Positions 9,891 through 16,752 of a stretch of 64,000 bases of DNA are shown in pieces. The notes under the pieces were generated by a model. That model made no database searches. It was not told the origin of the DNA and saw only the letters and a list, made by a program, of their open reading frames with translations. How positions within the stretch are numbered: position 1 is the first letter of the stretch; each line of letters opens with the position of its first letter. Source of the DNA: Escherichia virus TH41; the sequence record MT446412.1. One strand, given 5' to 3'. Position numbers and translations under genes: made by a program.

Positions 9891-9895
9891 GTTCA

Positions 9896-9919
9896 GGGAC
9901 TCTTCGGAGTCCCTTTTTT
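9896..9919 (+). terminator. Intrinsic terminator
   Basis: Hairpin gggactcTTCGgagtccc followed by TTTTTT. Confidence 0.7.
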
Positions 9920-9934
9920 ATTTTCCATAAAGGG

Positions 9935-9964
9935 GTTTACAACAGGGTTGGTCCAGTGCATAAT
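9935..9964 (+). promoter_or_regulatory. Early-type promoter (GTTTAC ... CATAAT) with conserved leader
   Basis: Leader cataatgattccatactgagtta is identical to the one at 33432-33454. Confidence 0.5.
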
Positions 9965-10005
9965 GATTCCATACTGAGTTACACAATAAAACACTGGAGA
10001 ATAAA

Positions 10006-10374
10006 ATGAAAATCAATCTTAACTCATACATCAAAGGTAAAGACCACGACGGTTACAAAGCCATTGAAACTAAAGAAATGCAATGGCACTTGTATAAAGA
10101 ACAATTTGAATTCGTTTCTTGCATGACTCCAGAAGGTCCTTCTGATGACTTCTCCTGGAAAATTATGGTAACAAACTTTTTTACTGGTGATACCTACGAA
10201 CTGAAAACTTTGATTCTTGGTAAGATTCGTTGTAAGACCTATGAAGATGAAGAAACTGGTTATTCTGAAGATGTTACATGGTATCAAAATGGTCGCACCA
10301 CTGCTGATGATTTGATTGAAAAAATGAAAGCTAAGGGTGAATTAAATTTAGATAATTGGATTAAAGTCGCATAA
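10006..10374 (+). CDS. Hypothetical protein (30.x-type cluster)
   Basis: 122 aa ORF; RBS GGAGAA. Confidence 0.5.
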   Translation: MKINLNSYIKGKDHDGYKAIETKEMQWHLYKEQFEFVSCMTPEGPSDDFSWKIMVTNFFTGDTYELKTLILGKIRCKTYEDEETGYSEDVTWYQNGRTTADDLIEKMKAKGELNLDNWIKVA

Positions 10375-10445: not shown

Positions 10446-10811
10446 ATGAACTACATCAACTTTGAACGCAAATATGTTTCTAACTGCATCCCAGGTTCTT
10501 CTGAAGTTATTTGCTTGTGGAAACATAAAAATGGTTCAGTGTGCGAAATTGAGCAGTATATGACTCCTAACTACGTTTATATGCGATTTGAAAATGGTAT
10601 CACTCTTTCAATCACTATGACTGGTTCAACTTTTAAAATTGCTTTAGATGATGATTTCCGTGAACGTGATTTAGGGACTCATCCTTGCTGGAATGGTGTT
10701 AATCGCAAGCTGTTGGTTAAAACTTGGATTCGTCATATCCTGGGTAACAAAGCAAAACCTGAACACCTGGAAGCAATCTTTGATGTAGTTCTTAATGAAT
10801 TTGATATCTAA
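10446..10811 (+). CDS. Hypothetical protein
   Basis: 121 aa ORF; leader ACTGGAGAATAAAATG shared with ORF 10006. Confidence 0.5.
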   Translation: MNYINFERKYVSNCIPGSSEVICLWKHKNGSVCEIEQYMTPNYVYMRFENGITLSITMTGSTFKIALDDDFRERDLGTHPCWNGVNRKLLVKTWIRHILGNKAKPEHLEAIFDVVLNEFDI

Positions 10812-10848
10812 TCTTAAATGGGGGCGAAAGCCCCTTGAGGAAAATACT

Positions 10849-11136
10849 ATGTTTATGACTACTTACTTTGATACACGTAAAAATTTCTGTGAAGTTGTTT
10901 TCTCTAAAAAAGGCCCTAATGTTCCTGCTGGGTGTGAACCAACACGCGATTCCATTAAGAACTATGTTGATGTAGTTTGCCCAGTTGAATTCAGGACTGT
11001 TAATGGACGTGATACTCTGGCAATCACCAAGCTTAGACGCGACATTGATATTGACCCAATTGCGGCGCGGGAAATTAATTCATCTGATATTAATGGCGGT
11101 AATGTTAAATCGCGCGGTTTCCTGACGAGGTTCTAA
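10849..11136 (+). CDS. Hypothetical protein
   Basis: 95 aa from ATG 10849 with RBS GAGGA 7 nt upstream; the track start at 10795 is a non-ATG upstream extension. Confidence 0.45.
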   Translation: MFMTTYFDTRKNFCEVVFSKKGPNVPAGCEPTRDSIKNYVDVVCPVEFRTVNGRDTLAITKLRRDIDIDPIAAREINSSDINGGNVKSRGFLTRF

Positions 11137-11330
11137 TGCAACTATTCTTATCACAAACAGTTCAGTTAAAAGGTGTGGGTATTCCTGGAATGATTTCTAA
11201 GGTCTTACCTGCTTTTAAATTGGGTAATAACCAAATTAAAGAAGCCTATGTAGTCCTGTGGGTTGATGGAACTGAAGATGTTCGCATGGACGGTGAACTG
11301 TCTGTAATCAAATGTTTAAGGCGAGGATAA
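11136..11330 (+). CDS. Hypothetical small protein
   Basis: 64 aa; RBS GAGG; start overlaps upstream stop (TAATG). Confidence 0.45.
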   Translation: MQLFLSQTVQLKGVGIPGMISKVLPAFKLGNNQIKEAYVVLWVDGTEDVRMDGELSVIKCLRRG

Positions 11331-11331
11331 T

Positions 11332-11544
11332 ATGTTTAAGAAACTGATTCAGAAAATTTTGGGCACAGAAATGGTTGAAGTTACTTATCGCGTAACTGAC
11401 GTGAGTCCATGGGCCCGAAATATTGAACCATATACTAAAACAATTAAAATGCTGAAATCTGACGGTGGATTATCTATTAAAGACCGTCTACCTGGTTATG
11501 GTCATTGGGCTGATGTAGATATTATCAGTGTCAAAGATGTCTGA
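11332..11544 (+). CDS. Hypothetical small protein
   Basis: 70 aa; RBS GAGGA. Confidence 0.45.
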   Translation: MFKKLIQKILGTEMVEVTYRVTDVSPWARNIEPYTKTIKMLKSDGGLSIKDRLPGYGHWADVDIISVKDV

Positions 11545-11995
11545 GTTAGAAATCAGAAGCAATTTCCCATGGCCATCATGTGCATTAAGTAACTTTGCTA
11601 AATGGCCTTTTGTTATGGATGGCATCCAGTTTGGAGGTCTTGAAGGCTTCCTCCAAGGGTGTAAGGTGAGAAATCATGAACAACAAAAACGTATATTTGG
11701 GATGTCCGGTCTGGCCGCACAACAAACTGGAAGAGCTTATGCTAGAGCTGCGGACCGTGGGACGCTTTTCTGGCTTGGAATTCCCTTTTCAAGATACTCT
11801 GCATCATGGAAAGAGTTGTATACAAATGCTTATTTTGAAGCAGCGCTTCAAAACAAAGGATTCCGCGACGCATTACAAGCTACAAAGGGCAAAGTTTTAA
11901 AGCATTCGATGGCGAGCCACCTTACTGTTCATGATACAATATTGACTGAACAAGAATTTATTGACATACTTAACCAATTGAGAGATGCATTATGA
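11537..11995 (+). CDS. NADAR-like (YbiA/DUF1768-like) domain protein
   Basis: N-terminal pattern SNF..WP....DG..F...E...Q..K (LSNFAKWPFVMDGIQFGGLEGFLQGCKV) resembles the NADAR family; the track start at 11528 is a GTG, first ATG is 11537. Confidence 0.45.
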   Translation: MSELEIRSNFPWPSCALSNFAKWPFVMDGIQFGGLEGFLQGCKVRNHEQQKRIFGMSGLAAQQTGRAYARAADRGTLFWLGIPFSRYSASWKELYTNAYFEAALQNKGFRDALQATKGKVLKHSMASHLTVHDTILTEQEFIDILNQLRDAL

Positions 11996-12810
11996 AACCC
12001 GTTATTTTAACAGATATTGATGGCGTATGTTTGTCATGGCAGTCTGGCTTGCCTTATTTCGCCCAAAAATATAATTTACCCCTGGAACATATCCTTAAGA
12101 TGATTCAGGATGAAAAATTTGTGACCCCTGGTAAACTGTTCAATTGTGATGAAGAGTTGGGAGCACAGTTGATTGAGAAATATAACTGTTCAGATTTTAT
12201 TCGCTATTTGTCTCCTTACGCAGATGCATTAGGGGTTATTAATAACCTCAAAGAGCAATATGATTTTGTGGCTGTTACGGCTCTGGGTGATTCCATTGAT
12301 GCCCGTCTGAATCGTCAATTCAACCTGAATGCTTTGTTCCCTGGCGCATTTAAAGAAGTGATGATGTGCGGCCATACAGCCTCTAAAGAAGAGTTATTTC
12401 AGAAAGCGAAGACCAAATATAATGTCGTTTGTTATATTGATGACCTTGCACACCATTGCGACCATGCGAGTGAAATCCTTGAAGTCCCGGTTTATTGGAT
12501 GGCTCGTGGCGAACGTGATGCTATTCCTAAAACAGCTTCCAAAGTTTTTAATTGGGACGATGTTGCTGGACAGCTTAAGTTGAAACACAAAGATGAACCG
12601 GTCAAACCCGAATTCACCCCAGATGAACTCCGTAAACTGGAAGAGTTGTTTCGTGAAAGTCGACGTCTTCAACAACAAATGCAGCAAGGATGGCAACCAG
12701 GTCAACCATGGACCCCTGGATATAATCCAGCATATCCATATCAATATGGCCAGCGCGTAGGTACTGGTATTGAATACTGGTACAATCAACCGACTGGCGG
12801 AAGGGGTTAA
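11992..12810 (+). CDS. HAD-superfamily hydrolase-like protein with Q/P/Y-rich C-terminal tail
   Basis: Motif-I-like ILTDIDGV at the N-terminus (HAD DxDG[VT] signature); 272 aa; C-terminus QQQMQQGWQPGQPWTPGYNPAYPYQYGQ is low complexity. Confidence 0.5.
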   Translation: MKPVILTDIDGVCLSWQSGLPYFAQKYNLPLEHILKMIQDEKFVTPGKLFNCDEELGAQLIEKYNCSDFIRYLSPYADALGVINNLKEQYDFVAVTALGDSIDARLNRQFNLNALFPGAFKEVMMCGHTASKEELFQKAKTKYNVVCYIDDLAHHCDHASEILEVPVYWMARGERDAIPKTASKVFNWDDVAGQLKLKHKDEPVKPEFTPDELRKLEELFRESRRLQQQMQQGWQPGQPWTPGYNPAYPYQYGQRVGTGIEYWYNQPTGGRG

Positions 12811-12811
12811 T

Positions 12812-13090
12812 ATGTTTGTCGTTCATACTATTTCAGACCGTGGTCCAGTCACCACGATGGATTACGGCCATGTTAACCAGTTTATTCGTCATGTGAATCA
12901 TAATTACTCGTTTGATATTAATCCGGTCAAGGATAACCCAATCTGGCGGGAATGTGTTGAACAAGGATTTATCTATGTTCACTTCCTGACTAAAATGAAA
13001 CCAGATGGTGCAACTAAATTTGTGCTCACTTATCATAAGCGGTTGGATTTGCTTTTGGAAGACGTGGCATATAATAGAGTCAACGACTAA
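12812..13090 (+). CDS. Hypothetical protein (30.1 position)
   Basis: 92 aa from ATG 12812 with RBS GGAAGGGG upstream; the track start at 12770 overlaps the HAD gene. Confidence 0.45.
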   Translation: MFVVHTISDRGPVTTMDYGHVNQFIRHVNHNYSFDINPVKDNPIWRECVEQGFIYVHFLTKMKPDGATKFVLTYHKRLDLLLEDVAYNRVND

Positions 13091-13100
13091 GAGGTGATTA

Positions 13101-14633
13101 ATGATTTTAGATATTTTAAATGAAATTGCTGCAACCGATTCCACTAAAGAGAAACAAGCTATTCTGGAATCGTATTCTGACAATGAAACCCTCAAACGTG
13201 TGTATCGTTTGACATATTCCAAAGGCATCCAGTTCTATATTAAGAAATGGCCAAAACCTGGGGCAACGACTCAAAGCTTTGGCATGTTGAATATCGATGA
13301 TATGCTTGACTTTATCGAATTCACATTGGCCTCTCGTAAATTAACAGGTAATGCTGCAATCGAGGAATTATCTGGCTATATTGCTGATGGTAAAAAAGCA
13401 GATGTTGAAGTCCTGCGCCGTGTGATGATGCGTGACCTGGAATGCGGGGCATCCGTATCAATTGCAAATAAGGTTTGGAAAGGTTTAATTCCTGAACAAC
13501 CGCAGATGCTCGCTTCTTCCTATGATGAAGCCGGTATTGCCAAGAACATTAAGTTCCCGGCCTTTGCGCAATTGAAAGCCGACGGCGCCCGGTGTTTTGC
13601 AGAAGTTCGTGGCGATGAGTTGGATGATGTTCGATTGTTATCCCGAGCTGGCAACGAATACCTAAAGCTTGACCTCCTTAAAAAGGAATTGATTGAAGCT
13701 ACTCGTGAAGCGCGTGAGAGACATCCTGAGGGCGTTTTGATTGACGGTGAGTTAGTATACCATGAACAGAAAATAGCTCCCCAGAATGATGGTTTGGGCT
13801 TCCTTTTTGACGATTCAGATGAGATTGCCCCTGCACAAGAAACTGCGGAATCAAGAACCTTTTCAAATGGTCTGGCAAACAAATCATTGAAAGGAACTAT
13901 TTCTGCAACAGAAGCTGCTTGTATGAAATTCCAGGTTTGGGATTATGTTCCACTGATTGAAGTCTATTCTGATGTTAAGATTCTCAATCCGTTGAAATAC
14001 GATGTGCGTTTTGCTGTTCTGGAAAAGATGATTGCAGATAACGTGGTGCTGCATGGTTTCGACCGCATGATTCTGATTGAAAACCATGTTGTTAACAATC
14101 TCGATGAAGCGAAGGTTATCTATAAGAAATACGTGGATGAAGGTCTTGAAGGTATTATCCTTAAGAACATGGCATCGATTTGGGAAAACAAGCGCTCAAA
14201 GAACCTGTATAAGTTCAAAGAAGTAATTGACATTGCAATGGAAATCATTGGATATTACGAGCACGATAAAGACCCGAATAAGATTGGCGGTGTTGTGCTT
14301 CGTTCTTCTTGTGGTAAGATTACGAATAACTGTGGTTCTGGGTTTAAAGACACAACTCAAGTTAAAGATAAGAAAACCAAAAAATGGGTTACTATTCCGA
14401 TTGAGGAGCGTCATAAAATGGATCGTGAAGCCTTAATGGTTAAAGCCCGTAAAGGTGAATTGGTTGGAATGATTGCCGACTGTGAATGTAATGGTTGGTT
14501 GACTTCCGAGACTCGTAAAGATAATACGGTTGCATTGTTCCTGCCGATTATCAAAGGGTTCCGTTTCGATAAAGACCATGCAGACACATTCGAAGATGTA
14601 TTTGGCGACTGGTCAAAGACTGGGTTAAAATAA
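13101..14633 (+). CDS. 30: ATP-dependent DNA ligase
   Basis: Adenylation motif KADG (FAQLKADGARCF), 510 aa, RBS GAGGTGA; position next to alt as in T4. Confidence 0.9.
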   Translation: MILDILNEIAATDSTKEKQAILESYSDNETLKRVYRLTYSKGIQFYIKKWPKPGATTQSFGMLNIDDMLDFIEFTLASRKLTGNAAIEELSGYIADGKKADVEVLRRVMMRDLECGASVSIANKVWKGLIPEQPQMLASSYDEAGIAKNIKFPAFAQLKADGARCFAEVRGDELDDVRLLSRAGNEYLKLDLLKKELIEATREARERHPEGVLIDGELVYHEQKIAPQNDGLGFLFDDSDEIAPAQETAESRTFSNGLANKSLKGTISATEAACMKFQVWDYVPLIEVYSDVKILNPLKYDVRFAVLEKMIADNVVLHGFDRMILIENHVVNNLDEAKVIYKKYVDEGLEGIILKNMASIWENKRSKNLYKFKEVIDIAMEIIGYYEHDKDPNKIGGVVLRSSCGKITNNCGSGFKDTTQVKDKKTKKWVTIPIEERHKMDREALMVKARKGELVGMIADCECNGWLTSETRKDNTVALFLPIIKGFRFDKDHADTFEDVFGDWSKTGLK

Positions 14634-14634
14634 C

Positions 14635-14656
14635 AAAAGGGCTTCGGCCCTTTTTT
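14635..14656 (+). terminator. Intrinsic terminator after gene 30
   Basis: aaagggcTTCGgcccttt followed by T-run. Confidence 0.7.
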
Positions 14657-14691: not shown

Positions 14692-16752
14692 ATGTCTGAA
14701 CAATTAAATGAACTCTTTGACAAATATATCGAAGCCTTCGGTTATCCTGTCATTAATATGAATCCGAAATACAAGGTCCCACAGGTTTGGCAATTCGGTG
14801 TTCCTGGGACCAATTCTCTTATGGCCCGTTTGATGCAATTCACGGGCAAAGAAACAGTTAAACAATATAAACGCGGCGATGCAATTGCCGAGGTATTCCT
14901 GCTCTCCGGGACTTCACATGGCCATGCTGTTCCTCTGAAGGGTGGTCTAGGTGAAAAACCTCTTGATGCAATTAACCTGATTTTTGTTACAGTATGGGAA
15001 AGCATTAAACTAGGCAAACCTGATGTAGTCTTGTTCCGTTTCCCATCCAAAAAGATGAAAGGGCAAGACCAAGCTGTTATTCGTATTATGAATCGACTGA
15101 TTCAAATGAAAACCAGCGGACGTTATCATGTTCTTCCGAATGCTTCTGGCCTCGGCAAAAAGAACGCATACGTAATTATGTACAAAAAGGGTGTTGACCT
15201 GCTTTCAGTTGATGGTATGCCACCGGTCCCTGAGAAATATCAAAAAGTTGAAACTAAAGTTGGCGATGTATTCACCAATAAAGATACAGGTGCACAAGTC
15301 TCCAAACAAGAAATCGCAGCCGAAGTTCTGATTGATGCAGCAAACAAAAAGACCGATGCTGCTGTTGCCCAGAAAACTAAAATCAGTCGCCGAGCTATTG
15401 CACAAGCCCAGTACGCTCCAAGTGATTCCGTGCCCGATGGCTGGGACGAAATTGATGCAGAAGCTGCTAAGTTTAGTCGACCGGCTACGGCAGAACTTAT
15501 CGATGATTATGAAGAACTGGAAATTTTTGTTCGACCTTCCGAAACGAATACTATGGCTCGTATGCGCGCAGCAGATGCGGCTATGCGAGCAAATGGTGTT
15601 TGGAAAGAAGAAATTCGTGTTGAAGACTCTGACCCAATTTTTAACCGTATGCATCGTGAACTTAAACGTGCCCCAGTTGGTAGCATGAAGCAGATGCAGA
15701 TTTTTGCCGAATCATGCGCAGAGATTCTTAACCTTCGCAAAGCCGCATTTATCGAAAGAAAAATGAATGATGCTCCTCCTAACCTGGATGCAGCCACTTA
15801 TGCAGCTTCGCTCTGGGAAAAAGAATACACAAGCGCCATTCGTGTTGCAGTTAAAGACTTTGCCGAAGAAGCATCAGAAAATACTCTTAATTTCACAGCA
15901 GGGTATACTGACAACCGTTTCCATTATGGCCAGCGAGAAGCAATTGCAGATTATTGTGGAGCAAACTATGCCGATATTAATAATTATTTGATGGGCAAAT
16001 ATTATGAAGAAGAAGCTGAATTCCTAAATCTAGACAGAGTTGTCGAAACAATTAAGGAATTGGATTCGGCCTTTGAAATTGGACATAAGTTGCCGCCTAA
16101 TACAACTCTTTGGCGTGGTCAATATTTAAACGTTCCTACATTTGATAAAATTAAGAAATCTAAATTATTTTATTTCAGGAACTATGTATCAACGTCGTTT
16201 AAACCGATTATCTTTGGTGGCTGGGTGGCGAACGTTGCTATGGCTGCAGTTCATCAGGACTATCGTGATGGGACATCTTTCCAGGCTGATGACGAAATTG
16301 TTTTACCAGATATGCCGGATGCACGCCGCGACCACGTAATGATGCATGTTGGTTGGAAAATTTCTGGGGCGGACTTAATTAACGTAATTGTTCCTGGGGA
16401 ATTGTCAAGCAACCCGTCCGAGCAGGAAGTTATTCTTCCTCGTGGGACTGTAGTTAAGATTACCAAAATTACTGATGCTTCGTATCAAGGAAACGCGAAC
16501 GTCAAAATGCTGGAAGCTGATATCCAGACTACGGACCAACTGGATGAAAATGCAGTTATCTATGATGGCGATGTGTTGATGGAAACTGGTGAGCTTGTCG
16601 TTTATCAGGGCGAGGAAACAGAAGAGCCAGTAGAATCTGTTGACTTTGCATCGTTTGCATCCTCTGGTGTAACGAAGAAAGTCAATCAAGGTCTTGGTAT
16701 TCTTGCTAGTTGTATTAATTTGGAAGCTATTCCTCCTAAATTCCTTTCGTAG
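14692..16752 (+). CDS. alt: Alt-like ADP-ribosyltransferase (virion-packaged)
   Basis: 686 aa (T4 Alt about 682 aa), located between gene 30 and gene 54 as in T4, preceded by a late promoter. Confidence 0.75.
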   Translation: MSEQLNELFDKYIEAFGYPVINMNPKYKVPQVWQFGVPGTNSLMARLMQFTGKETVKQYKRGDAIAEVFLLSGTSHGHAVPLKGGLGEKPLDAINLIFVTVWESIKLGKPDVVLFRFPSKKMKGQDQAVIRIMNRLIQMKTSGRYHVLPNASGLGKKNAYVIMYKKGVDLLSVDGMPPVPEKYQKVETKVGDVFTNKDTGAQVSKQEIAAEVLIDAANKKTDAAVAQKTKISRRAIAQAQYAPSDSVPDGWDEIDAEAAKFSRPATAELIDDYEELEIFVRPSETNTMARMRAADAAMRANGVWKEEIRVEDSDPIFNRMHRELKRAPVGSMKQMQIFAESCAEILNLRKAAFIERKMNDAPPNLDAATYAASLWEKEYTSAIRVAVKDFAEEASENTLNFTAGYTDNRFHYGQREAIADYCGANYADINNYLMGKYYEEEAEFLNLDRVVETIKELDSAFEIGHKLPPNTTLWRGQYLNVPTFDKIKKSKLFYFRNYVSTSFKPIIFGGWVANVAMAAVHQDYRDGTSFQADDEIVLPDMPDARRDHVMMHVGWKISGADLINVIVPGELSSNPSEQEVILPRGTVVKITKITDASYQGNANVKMLEADIQTTDQLDENAVIYDGDVLMETGELVVYQGEETEEPVESVDFASFASSGVTKKVNQGLGILASCINLEAIPPKFLS

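What the first reader, a model, noticed from the sequence alone, without database searches (positions are those of the whole stretch)
11537..12810. NADAR-like protein adjacent to a HAD-family hydrolase, near the alt ADP-ribosyltransferase
ORF 11537-11995 has the N-terminal signature of NADAR/YbiA-type domains (SNF..WP....DG), a family reported to reverse ADP-ribosylation of guanine installed by DarT-type toxins. It is followed, with overlapping stop/start, by a HAD-superfamily protein with an N-terminal DxDG[VT]-type motif (ILTDIDGV). A phage NADAR plus a phosphatase is a plausible counter-defence or nucleotide-salvage pair, and it sits 2 kb from alt.
Basis: partly seen in the sequence, partly recalled or inferred. 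Interest (0 to 1): 0.55.

Follow-up and report, generated by a model that had tools for sequence, protein, structure and literature searches.

The report
Known anti-DarT NADAR beside HAD phosphatase
The first gene is this T4-like phage's copy of T4 gene 30.3 (AdfN), an already characterised enzyme that strips defensive ADP-ribose marks off phage DNA; its neighbour (gene 30.2) is an uncharacterised nucleotidase-like phosphatase that published transposon data show is not needed for that counter-defence.

Summary
The window is a T4-like phage, 99% identical to Escherichia phage UPEC01, with the T4 gene order cd-31-rIII-30.9…30.1-30-alt.

ORF 11537-11995 is the orthologue of T4 gp30.3. It matches Pfam Phage_30_3 at E 1.9e-64 and is 86% identical to the T4 protein at the same length. 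Its model matches only the three solved NADAR structures. E36, K43, H123 and the C-terminal helix are all kept. T4 gp30.3 was renamed AdfN and shown experimentally to remove DarT1-installed ADP-ribose from DNA (Johannesman 2025; Toxins 2024). The NADAR reading is therefore correct but already published.

ORF 11992-12810 is gp30.2, a true HAD-fold phosphatase. All four catalytic motifs are invariant and it carries a helical cap. Its closest relatives are 5'(3')-deoxyribonucleotidases (NT5C).

The proposed functional pair is not supported:
- T4 transposon data show 30.2 insertions are neutral under DarTG1 (log2FC -0.12), against -7.25 for 30.3.
- Only 19 of 80 AdfN loci have gp30.2 within 6 kb.
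- gp30.2 tracks the DNA ligase gene instead (65 of 79 loci).

Proximity to alt is conserved gene order, not mechanism. Low interest.

The parts
11537..11995 (+). adfN (T4 gene 30.3 orthologue): NADAR-fold DNA ADP-ribosylglycohydrolase, 152 aa. Catalytic E36 and K43, clade-specific H123, C-terminal helix aa 138-151 intact.
   Evidence: Pfam PF08010 E 1.9e-64. 86% identity to T4 gp30.3 over 152/152 aa. Invariant residues in alignment A2. AF2 pLDDT 94.6. Foldseek top three hits are YbiA, G. lovleyi NADAR and P. nicotianae NADAR. hhalign to YbiA gives 94.4% probability. Function of the T4 orthologue from PMC11825919.
11992..12591 (+). gene 30.2, HAD phosphatase core (aa 1-200). Motif I D8-x-D10, motif II T96, motif III K132, motif IV D150-D151. 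Helical C1 cap at about aa 16-85.
12592..12810 (+). gene 30.2 C-terminal extension (aa 201-272): one confident helix (aa 210-233), then a low-confidence Q/P/G/Y-rich tail. Absent from many homologues, which are only about 200-220 aa.
   Evidence: pLDDT profile. Homologue lengths and alignment. The tail is divergent from T4.
12766..12795 (+). Conserved short peptide GIEYWYNQPT near the end of the gp30.2 tail (family consensus G-T-G-I-E-Y-L-x-R-Q-P-T).
   Evidence: Present in 16 of 55 long homologues, including T4-, Klebsiella- and Citrobacter-phage types. Occurs nowhere else in the six-frame translation of the window.
11332..11544 (+). gene 30.4 (70 aa, unknown function). Its stop overlaps the adfN start (ATGTCTGA), so it is probably translationally coupled to adfN.
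   Evidence: ORF and sequence. PHROG 2042 E 1.9e-34. T4 30.4 insertions are mildly depleted under DarTG1.
11676..11900 (+). 30.3' : 74-codon ORF in another frame inside adfN, annotated in T4 and VR7. The sequence alone does not support it as a gene.
   Evidence: Annotations. An open stretch this long arises in 43% of synonymous-codon shuffles of adfN, and the start codon varies among ATG, GTG and TTG in relatives.
12812..13090 (+). gene 30.1 (DUF3045). Context only.
   Evidence: Pfam PF11243 E 9.3e-18.
13101..14633 (+). gene 30, ATP-dependent DNA ligase. Context: it is the most conserved neighbour of gene 30.2.
   Evidence: Annotation of VR7 and T4. Ligase lies directly downstream of gp30.2 in 65 of 79 loci.
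14692..16752 (+). alt, ADP-ribosyltransferase. Context only.
   Evidence: 97-100% identical to alt of VR-type phages. T4 alt insertions are neutral under DarTG1.
9895..10007 (+). Terminator-like hairpin (9895-9914) followed by promoter-like sites (9936-10007). Likely start of the transcription unit 30.8 through 30 that contains adfN and 30.2.
   Evidence: Consensus scan only. Promoter matches overall are no more frequent than in shuffles.

Best explanation
The finding is two separate early genes of a T4-like phage. They are packed into one transcription unit but do different jobs.

(1) adfN (gene 30.3) encodes a stand-alone NADAR enzyme. When a host DarT1 toxin ADP-ribosylates guanines in phage DNA and blocks replication, AdfN cleaves the ADP-ribose off and restores plain guanine. 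The phage can then replicate in DarTG1-carrying cells. This activity and phenotype are shown experimentally for the 86%-identical T4 protein. For this allele they are inferred from orthology, from the retained E36, K43 and H123, and from an intact C-terminal helix.

(2) Gene 30.2 encodes a Mg2+-dependent HAD phosphatase with a small-molecule (C1) cap. D8 would be the nucleophile and D10 the acid/base. Its nearest relatives are NT5C-type 5'(3')-deoxyribonucleotidases, so its most likely reaction is (deoxy)nucleoside monophosphate to nucleoside plus phosphate. The fold and motifs are shown here; the substrate is inferred. It is dispensable in the laboratory and is not part of the AdfN mechanism. 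Its genomic partner over evolution is the ligase gene, not adfN.
For: AdfN identity:
- Pfam PF08010 E 1.9e-64.
- 86% identity and equal length to T4 gp30.3.
- E36 and H123 are invariant and K43 is nearly invariant across 43 homologues.
- AF2 pLDDT 94.6, with a terminal helix at aa 138-151.
- The only confident PDB fold matches are the three NADAR structures 2b3w, 8bat and 8bau.
- hhalign to E. coli YbiA gives 94.4% probability, E 8.6e-8.
- Several homologues hit both PF08010 and PF08719.

AdfN function:
- PMC11825919 shows T4 AdfN is necessary and sufficient against DarTG1, that E36A, K43A and the C-terminal truncation impair it, and that the purified protein removes ADP-ribose from DNA.
- PMC11125620 reports in vitro tests of four NADAR subtypes, the phage gp30.3 type among them, and describes phage gp30.3 proteins as the NADAR clade that carries a histidine at the distinguishing catalytic position.
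- HIDEN-SEQ finds 30.3 at log2FC -7.25 under DarTG1.

gp30.2 fold and family:
- D8, D10, K132, D150 and D151 are invariant and T96 is nearly invariant.
- The AF2 core has pLDDT >90.
- The family profile's best PDB sequence hit is cdN. In that alignment W16 and F43 align to two cdN phenylalanines, which from memory are the base-stacking pair.
- NT5C is the commonest Pfam family among distant members, 18 of 58, best E 4.2e-10.

Independence of the two genes:
- T4 30.2 insertions change by log2FC -0.12 (p 0.61) under DarTG1 and -0.10 in M9.
- All 72 TA sites in 30.2 are hit on K-12.
- 19 of 80 AdfN loci have gp30.2 within 6 kb.
- 32 of 79 gp30.2 loci have AdfN within 6 kb, against 65 of 79 with ligase directly downstream.
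- In nine genomes the two genes lie about 52-69 kb apart.
Against: - No activity was measured for this allele.
- The window protein does not reach Pfam NADAR PF08719 directly and hits no PADLOC model.
- For gp30.2, Pfam HAD_2 is below threshold (13 vs 23.8 bits).
- The Tn-seq data are from T4, not this phage, and cover one host and a few conditions. A redundant or host-specific contribution of gp30.2 to AdfN function is not excluded.
- The ATGA overlap and strict adjacency in T4, Mosigvirus-like and Gaprivervirus relatives would fit a functional link.
Confidence: 0.8

Rival explanations
1. AdfN and gp30.2 act in one pathway. Either gp30.2 is the unidentified T-even factor that AdfN needs for full activity, or it dephosphorylates a product derived from the released ADP-ribose.
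For: Stop/start overlap ATGA. Strict adjacency in all close relatives (14 loci). PMC11825919 reports that AdfN-T4 works fully only during T-even infection and proposes an unknown phage factor.
Against: T4 insertions in 30.2 are neutral under DarTG1 (271.5 to 249.8, log2FC -0.12, p 0.61), while 30.3 falls from 261 to 0.7. Most AdfN homologues have no gp30.2 nearby, and in nine genomes the genes are more than 50 kb apart. A capped HAD monoesterase is not expected to attack the pyrophosphate of free ADP-ribose (established HAD chemistry; inference).
Confidence: 0.06
2. gp30.2 is a nucleic-acid end phosphatase (PNKP-like DNA 3'-phosphatase) that prepares nicks for the adjacent DNA ligase.
For: Ligase lies directly downstream in 65 of 79 loci. 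Weak hit to the polynucleotide-kinase PHROG 415, E 0.002. One of 58 distant relatives hits HAD_PNKP.
Against: The model has a four-helix C1 cap over the active site. That is typical of small-molecule HADs, whereas end-processing HADs are capless (established HAD classification). NT5C hits far outnumber PNKP hits, 18 vs 1. T4-like phages already carry PseT 3'-phosphatase (established knowledge). Ligase adjacency may simply reflect conserved core gene order.
Confidence: 0.1
3. The main role of AdfN here is not anti-DarT. Instead it reverses or trims ADP-ribosylation made by the phage's own Alt/ModA/ModB, or it degrades low-molecular-weight ADP-ribose immune signals, as proposed from genome context before the experiments.
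For: Iyer et al. 2022 (PMC9503650) noted that T4-like NADARs are early genes expressed along with ARTs, and favoured small ADPr-derivative substrates. alt lies 2.7 kb downstream.
Against: Direct experiments show a DNA-guanine de-ADP-ribosylation activity and a DarTG1-specific phenotype. alt insertions are neutral under DarTG1. AdfN is often far from alt in other T4-like genomes. An additional substrate is not excluded.
Confidence: 0.08

Closest known systems
T4 AdfN (gp30.3), anti-DarT factor NADAR (Johannesman et al., Nat Commun 2025, PMC11825919)
   Same: Orthologue. Same position between 30.4 and 30.2, same length (152 aa), 86% identity. E36, K43, H123 and the C-terminal helix are conserved.
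   Different: 22 substitutions, none at the tested catalytic residues. Activity of this allele is untested. Unlike the RB69 allele it is not frameshifted.
DarG1-type NADAR antitoxins (e.g. Geobacter lovleyi NADAR, PDB 8bat)
   Same: Same fold (Foldseek probability 1.0) and same reaction, removal of ADP-ribose from guanine in DNA.
   Different: Lacks the N-terminal extension of DarT1-linked NADARs. Carries His where they have Asp in the last strand. Not encoded next to a DarT. T4 AdfN cannot replace DarG1 in uninfected cells.
E. coli YbiA (PDB 2b3w), founding NADAR / riboflavin-intermediate N-glycosidase
   Same: Best structural and sequence match among solved structures: Foldseek E 2.1e-5, TM 0.68; hhalign 94.4%. 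Shares the SNFxxWP...DG...E...Q.K motif.
   Different: About 19-26% identity. YbiA has Glu at the distinguishing position and a housekeeping role.
T4 gp30.2 (hypothetical protein NP_049815)
   Same: Orthologue of ORF 11992-12810. 67% identity overall, with the HAD core (aa 1-190) far more conserved than the tail. Same position, and the same terminal GIEY..PT peptide.
   Different: The tail region is divergent and carries indels. No function is published: literature searches for gp30.2 returned nothing.
NT5C family 5'(3')-deoxyribonucleotidases (cdN/mdN, PDB 2jao, 2i7d, 1mh9; Pfam PF06941)
   Same: HAD core plus helical cap. DxDGV motif I. Best Foldseek and best profile-to-PDB hit. Aromatic residues align with two cdN phenylalanines. 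Distant family members hit PF06941.
   Different: Only 16-18% identity. The window protein itself does not reach PF06941 or any HAD Pfam threshold. It has an extra roughly 70-aa C-terminal extension. Substrate is untested.

Membership tests
NADAR superfamily, phage gp30.3/AdfN clade | Significant match to the family profile (Pfam PF08010 Phage_30_3) | tested here: met
   E 1.9e-64, 216 bits against a cutoff of 36, covering 137 of 138 profile positions.
NADAR superfamily, phage gp30.3/AdfN clade | Direct match to the general NADAR profile (Pfam PF08719) | tested here: not met
   No PF08719 hit at E<=1 for the window protein. Homologues P0137, P0145, P0194 and P0219 hit both families, and hhalign of the family profile to YbiA gives 94.4% probability. 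The link to the superfamily therefore runs through profiles and fold.
NADAR superfamily, phage gp30.3/AdfN clade | YbiA fold (alpha+beta, core helices flanked by small sheets) | tested here: met
   AF2 pLDDT 94.6. The only Foldseek PDB hits with probability 1.0 are 2b3w, 8bat and 8bau.
NADAR superfamily, phage gp30.3/AdfN clade | Catalytic Glu and Lys (T4 E36, K43) shown to matter by mutagenesis | tested here: met
   E36 and K43 are present at identical positions. E36 is invariant and K43 at least 90% conserved in 43 homologues. Mutagenesis data in PMC11825919.
NADAR superfamily, phage gp30.3/AdfN clade | Histidine at the clade-distinguishing position of the last strand (Glu in YbiA, Asp in DarT-linked NADARs) | tested here: met
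   H123 is invariant in A2 and directly follows predicted strand 120-122. Criterion from PMC11125620 and PMC11825919.
NADAR superfamily, phage gp30.3/AdfN clade | Intact C-terminal helix (lost in the inactive RB69 allele) | tested here: met
   Full 152 aa with no frameshift. Helix at aa 138-151.
NADAR superfamily, phage gp30.3/AdfN clade | ADP-ribosyl-guanine glycohydrolase activity and protection from DarTG1 | not testable with these tools
   Shown only for the T4 orthologue.
HAD superfamily phosphatases | Motif I DxD (nucleophile and acid/base Asp), which distinguishes phosphatases from dehalogenases | tested here: met
   D8 and D10 are invariant in 41 close homologues and in 58 distant ones.
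HAD superfamily phosphatases | Motifs II (S/T), III (K/R) and IV (acidic pair) | tested here: met
   T96 at least 90% conserved. K132, D150 and D151 invariant.
HAD superfamily phosphatases | Rossmannoid HAD fold with cap | tested here: met
HAD superfamily phosphatases | Score above the curated threshold of a Pfam/NCBIfam HAD model | tested here: not met
   HAD_2 scores 13 bits against a cutoff of 23.8. No NCBIfam hit. The family is too divergent for the curated profiles.
NT5C 5'(3')-deoxyribonucleotidase family (PF06941) | Profile match to PF06941 | tested here: inconclusive
   The window protein has no hit. 5 of 41 close and 18 of 58 distant family members hit it, best E 4.2e-10.
NT5C 5'(3')-deoxyribonucleotidase family (PF06941) | Closest solved structures are deoxyribonucleotidases, and the base-stacking aromatic pair is conserved | tested here: inconclusive
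NT5C 5'(3')-deoxyribonucleotidase family (PF06941) | dNMP phosphatase activity | not testable with these tools
   No biochemical data were found for any gp30.2 homologue.

The most novel reading that the evidence does not exclude
gp30.2 is not a housekeeping enzyme. It would be a conditionally important anti-defence phosphatase that destroys a nucleotide-type host signal or toxic nucleotide, for example a dNMP-class alarm molecule or a phosphorylated ADP-ribose derivative. Its conserved C-terminal GIEY..QPT peptide would dock it onto a partner. Its phenotype would appear only on hosts carrying the matching defence system, which would explain why it is neutral on K-12, in M9 and against DarTG1.
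Probability: 0.1. Interest if true: 0.55.

Novelty: already known. Interest (0 to 1): 0.15.

Why it matters
The core of the finding, a phage NADAR that undoes DarT-type DNA ADP-ribosylation, is correct. It has already been established for T4 gene 30.3 (AdfN) by genetics, biochemistry and transposon sequencing. This window adds only another intact allele in a Gaprivervirus-like phage.

The new part of the proposal, a NADAR-phosphatase team, is contradicted by published fitness data and by gene-neighbourhood statistics.

Some modest value remains. gp30.2 belongs to a large family (at least 1,466 clusters) of NT5C-like HAD phosphatases. It is conserved next to the ligase gene in T4-like phages and has no known role. 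The phage factor that potentiates AdfN is still unidentified, and gp30.2 can now be given low priority as a candidate.

Tried and rejected
- Direct Pfam NADAR (PF08719) and PADLOC searches with the window proteins gave nothing. NCBIfam gave only a sub-threshold riboflavin N-glycosidase hit for AdfN.
- Single-sequence PDB searches were weak: YbiA at E 1.2 for AdfN, nothing relevant for gp30.2. Profiles and predicted structures were needed.
- Literature searches for gp30.2, or 30.2 plus HAD, returned no paper.
- gp30.2 as the missing T-even factor for AdfN was rejected on the T4 Tn-seq data and on co-occurrence.
- A nutrient-dependent role for gp30.2 was not seen: log2FC -0.10 in M9.
- The internal ORF 30.3' as a real overlapping gene was not supported. 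An open frame of that length arises in 43% of synonymous shuffles.
- The gp30.2 tail peptide was searched for elsewhere in the window as a possible shared docking motif. It occurs only in gp30.2.
- The profile search of the 5.8-billion-protein set with A1 listed no hit with a Pfam domain other than DUF3045 (one fused protein) and no new source names among the 120 best shown. The exhaustive representative search was more useful.
- A preprint on an m6-dAMP-triggered defence was checked for a phage nucleotidase counter-measure. None is reported, and T2 is restricted by that system.
Full report
**What is in the sequence**

The region is a tightly packed run of plus-strand ORFs:
- 11332-11544, 70 aa
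- 11537-11995, 152 aa
- 11992-12810, 272 aa
- 12812-13090, 92 aa
- 13101-14633, 510 aa
- 14692-16752, 686 aa

The stop of the 70-aa ORF overlaps the ATG at 11537 (ATGTCTGA). The stop of the 152-aa ORF overlaps the ATG at 11992 (ATGA).

Megablast of 10800-13100 finds 445 phage records. The best is Escherichia phage UPEC01 at 99% identity, followed by many T4-like phages at 92-95%. In the annotated relative VR7 (Straboviridae, Gaprivervirus) the matching genes are 30.4, 30.3 (with the internal 30.3'), 30.2, 30.1, 30 (DNA ligase) and alt, downstream of cd, 31 and rIII. T4 itself has the same order.

The 'NADAR-like ORF' is T4 gene 30.3 and the 'HAD' is T4 gene 30.2.

**ORF 11537-11995 is AdfN**

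Sequence evidence:
- It matches Pfam PF08010 (Phage_30_3) at E 1.9e-64, but not PF08719 (NADAR) directly.
- The only PDB sequence hit is E. coli YbiA: E 1.2 with the single sequence and 0.0019 with a 43-sequence profile. The alignment runs through the SNF..WP..DG..E..Q.K block.
- hhalign of the family profile against YbiA gives 94.4% probability, E 8.6e-8.
- Some homologues carry precomputed hits to both PF08010 and PF08719.

Structural evidence: an AlphaFold2 model built on the alignment is confident (pLDDT 94.6). Its only Foldseek matches in the PDB with probability 1.0 are the three solved NADARs: YbiA 2b3w, Geobacter lovleyi NADAR 8bat and Phytophthora NADAR 8bau.

The literature settles the function.
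- Johannesman et al. (PMC11825919) mapped DarTG1 resistance of T-even phages to gene 30.3 and renamed it adfN. They showed it is sufficient (ectopic expression rescues RB69) and necessary. E36A, K43A and loss of the last helix impair it. Purified protein removes ADP-ribose from DarT1-modified DNA.
- PMC11125620 reports in vitro tests of four NADAR subtypes, the phage gp30.3 type among them. It defines gp30.3 proteins as the NADAR clade with a histidine at the distinguishing catalytic position.
- A T4 transposon screen (HIDEN-SEQ, bioRxiv 10.1101/2025.11.20.689424) shows insertions in 30.3 falling from a mean of 261.0 to 0.7 (log2FC -7.25, adjusted p 0) on a DarTG1 host. The sheet identity was confirmed.

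The window protein is 86% identical to T4 AdfN over all 152 residues with no gaps. It keeps E36, K43 and H123; E36 and H123 are invariant and K43 nearly invariant across 43 homologues. It is not truncated like the RB69 allele.

The mechanism is shown for the orthologue and inferred for this allele: hydrolysis of the ADP-ribose-guanine bond on phage DNA, which restores replication.

**ORF 11992-12810 is a real HAD phosphatase of unknown role**

Curated profiles barely see it. Pfam HAD_2 scores 13 bits against a cutoff of 23.8, NCBIfam finds nothing, and PHROG 420 is annotated 'unknown function'.

An alignment of 41 homologues shows every HAD catalytic motif conserved: D8 and D10, T96, K132, and D150-D151. 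The AF2 model (pLDDT 88.6) has three parts:
- a confident core at aa 1-200, with a helical cap between motifs I and II
- a confident helix at aa 210-233
- a low-confidence Q/P/G/Y-rich tail

The family profile's best PDB sequence hit is again cdN, at a weak E 0.1. In that alignment invariant W16 and near-invariant F43 fall on two cdN phenylalanines. From my memory of the cdN/mdN literature these are the base-stacking pair; I did not verify this here.

An exhaustive profile search finds 1,466 representative clusters at E<=0.001. Of 58 distant members scanned against Pfam, NT5C is the commonest family, with 18 hits and best E 4.2e-10.

I conclude that gp30.2 is a divergent NT5C-like, capped, Asp-Asp HAD phosphatase. 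Its most probable substrate is a (deoxy)nucleoside monophosphate. The fold and motifs are shown here; the substrate is inferred. No publication on gp30.2 was found.

**Are the two genes a functional pair?**

Johannesman et al. report that AdfN-T4 works fully only during T-even infection and postulate an unknown phage factor. The overlapping downstream gene is an obvious candidate, so I tested it in two ways.

First, published fitness data for T4:
- Under DarTG1, 30.2 insertions go from 271.5 to 249.8 (log2FC -0.12, p 0.61). 30.1 (-0.01) and alt (-0.01) are also neutral.
- 30.2 is neutral in M9 versus LB (-0.10).
- 30.2 is fully insertion-tolerant on K-12, with 72 of 72 TA sites hit.

Second, gene neighbourhoods:
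- Of 80 viral contigs encoding an AdfN homologue, 19 have gp30.2 within 6 kb. In 14 it is directly adjacent, all but one of them close relatives of T4, VR7 or RB-type phages. In 5 it is separated by 1-1.7 kb.
- Of 79 contigs encoding gp30.2, 65 have the ligase gene directly downstream. Only 32 have AdfN within 6 kb, and 15 have it adjacent.
- Nine genomes appear in both sets with the two genes about 52-69 kb apart.

The adjacency is therefore a lineage-specific arrangement within conserved T4 gene order, and gp30.2 is not required for AdfN's known function. The same data argue against any mechanistic meaning of the distance to alt.

**Comparison with what is known, and novelty**

AdfN here is a member of an experimentally characterised family; see the membership table. 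The only unmet criterion is a direct PF08719 hit, which reflects how Pfam partitions the superfamily. gp30.2 meets the defining HAD features but not the curated score thresholds, and its NT5C membership is inconclusive.

Nothing here is new in kind. The added 'pair' idea is contradicted.

**Verdict**

- Observation: confirmed.
- Interpretation: partly supported.
- Novelty: already known.
- Interest: 0.15.

The residual open questions are the substrate and role of gp30.2, the meaning of its conserved C-terminal peptide, and the identity of AdfN's potentiating factor. The mild depletion of 30.4 insertions under DarTG1 may be only a polar effect.

Noticed in passing
window 11332-11544 (gene 30.4): In the T4 DarTG1 transposon sheet, 30.4 is significantly depleted (375.9 to 108.0, log2FC -1.79, adjusted p 0.014). 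It lies immediately upstream of adfN and its stop overlaps the adfN start. Among the rows I read it was the only significant gene besides 30.3. The cause is either a polar or translational-coupling effect on adfN, or 30.4 contributes to AdfN function. 30.4 homologues were detected only in phages with a close (>=85% identical) AdfN.
   Followed up: partly
window 12766-12795 (end of gene 30.2): The otherwise divergent, low-confidence tail of gp30.2 ends in a conserved peptide: GIEYWYNQPT here, G-T-G-I-E-Y-L-x-R-Q-P-T in Klebsiella- and Citrobacter-phage homologues, GIEYLYNRPT in T4. It is present in 16 of 55 long homologues. It looks like a short docking motif and occurs nowhere else in the window.
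   Followed up: partly
loci L082-L145 (gp30.2 contexts): gp30.2 is followed directly by the ATP-dependent DNA ligase gene in 65 of 79 viral contigs, even where 30.1 and AdfN are missing. Often only 2-70 bases separate them. This may be conserved core gene order or a functional link.
   Followed up: partly
window 11676-11900 (30.3'): The alternative-frame ORF annotated as 30.3' in T4 and VR7 is open here too (74 codons). A stretch that long appears in 43% of synonymous-codon shuffles of adfN, and its start codon is ATG, GTG or TTG in different relatives. Its openness is not evidence of a gene.
   Followed up: yes
proteins P0120-P0122, P0129, P0131, P0132, P0135: Many database AdfN homologues from T-even-like phages are shortened (126, 109, 107, 91 or 89 aa; e.g. 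phages SV76, UGJNEcP4, vB_Eco_NR1). This suggests that natural loss or truncation of adfN, as described for RB69, is common.
   Followed up: no
proteins P0167, P0224: gp30.3-type (PF08010) NADARs also occur on large bacterial contigs: the Methylocystis bryophila chromosome (4.5 Mb) and a 424-kb contig. The 'phage' clade is therefore not restricted to phages, or these are prophage or orphan copies.
   Followed up: no
window 9895-9914 and 14635-14654: Two strong GC-rich hairpins with T-runs bracket the block 30.8 through 30. The first is AGGGACTCTTCGGAGTCCCT followed by T-rich sequence, after gene 30.9. The second is AAAAGGGC(TTCG)GCCCTTTT, between ligase and alt. The first is followed by promoter-like hexamers at 9936-10007.
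   Followed up: no
proteins P0021, P0088: One gp30.2 homologue (302 aa) carries a precomputed DUF3045 (gp30.1) domain, suggesting an occasional 30.2-30.1 fusion or a read-through gene call. One Acinetobacter-phage gp30.2 homologue is mislabelled 'DNA ligase' in its source record.
   Followed up: no
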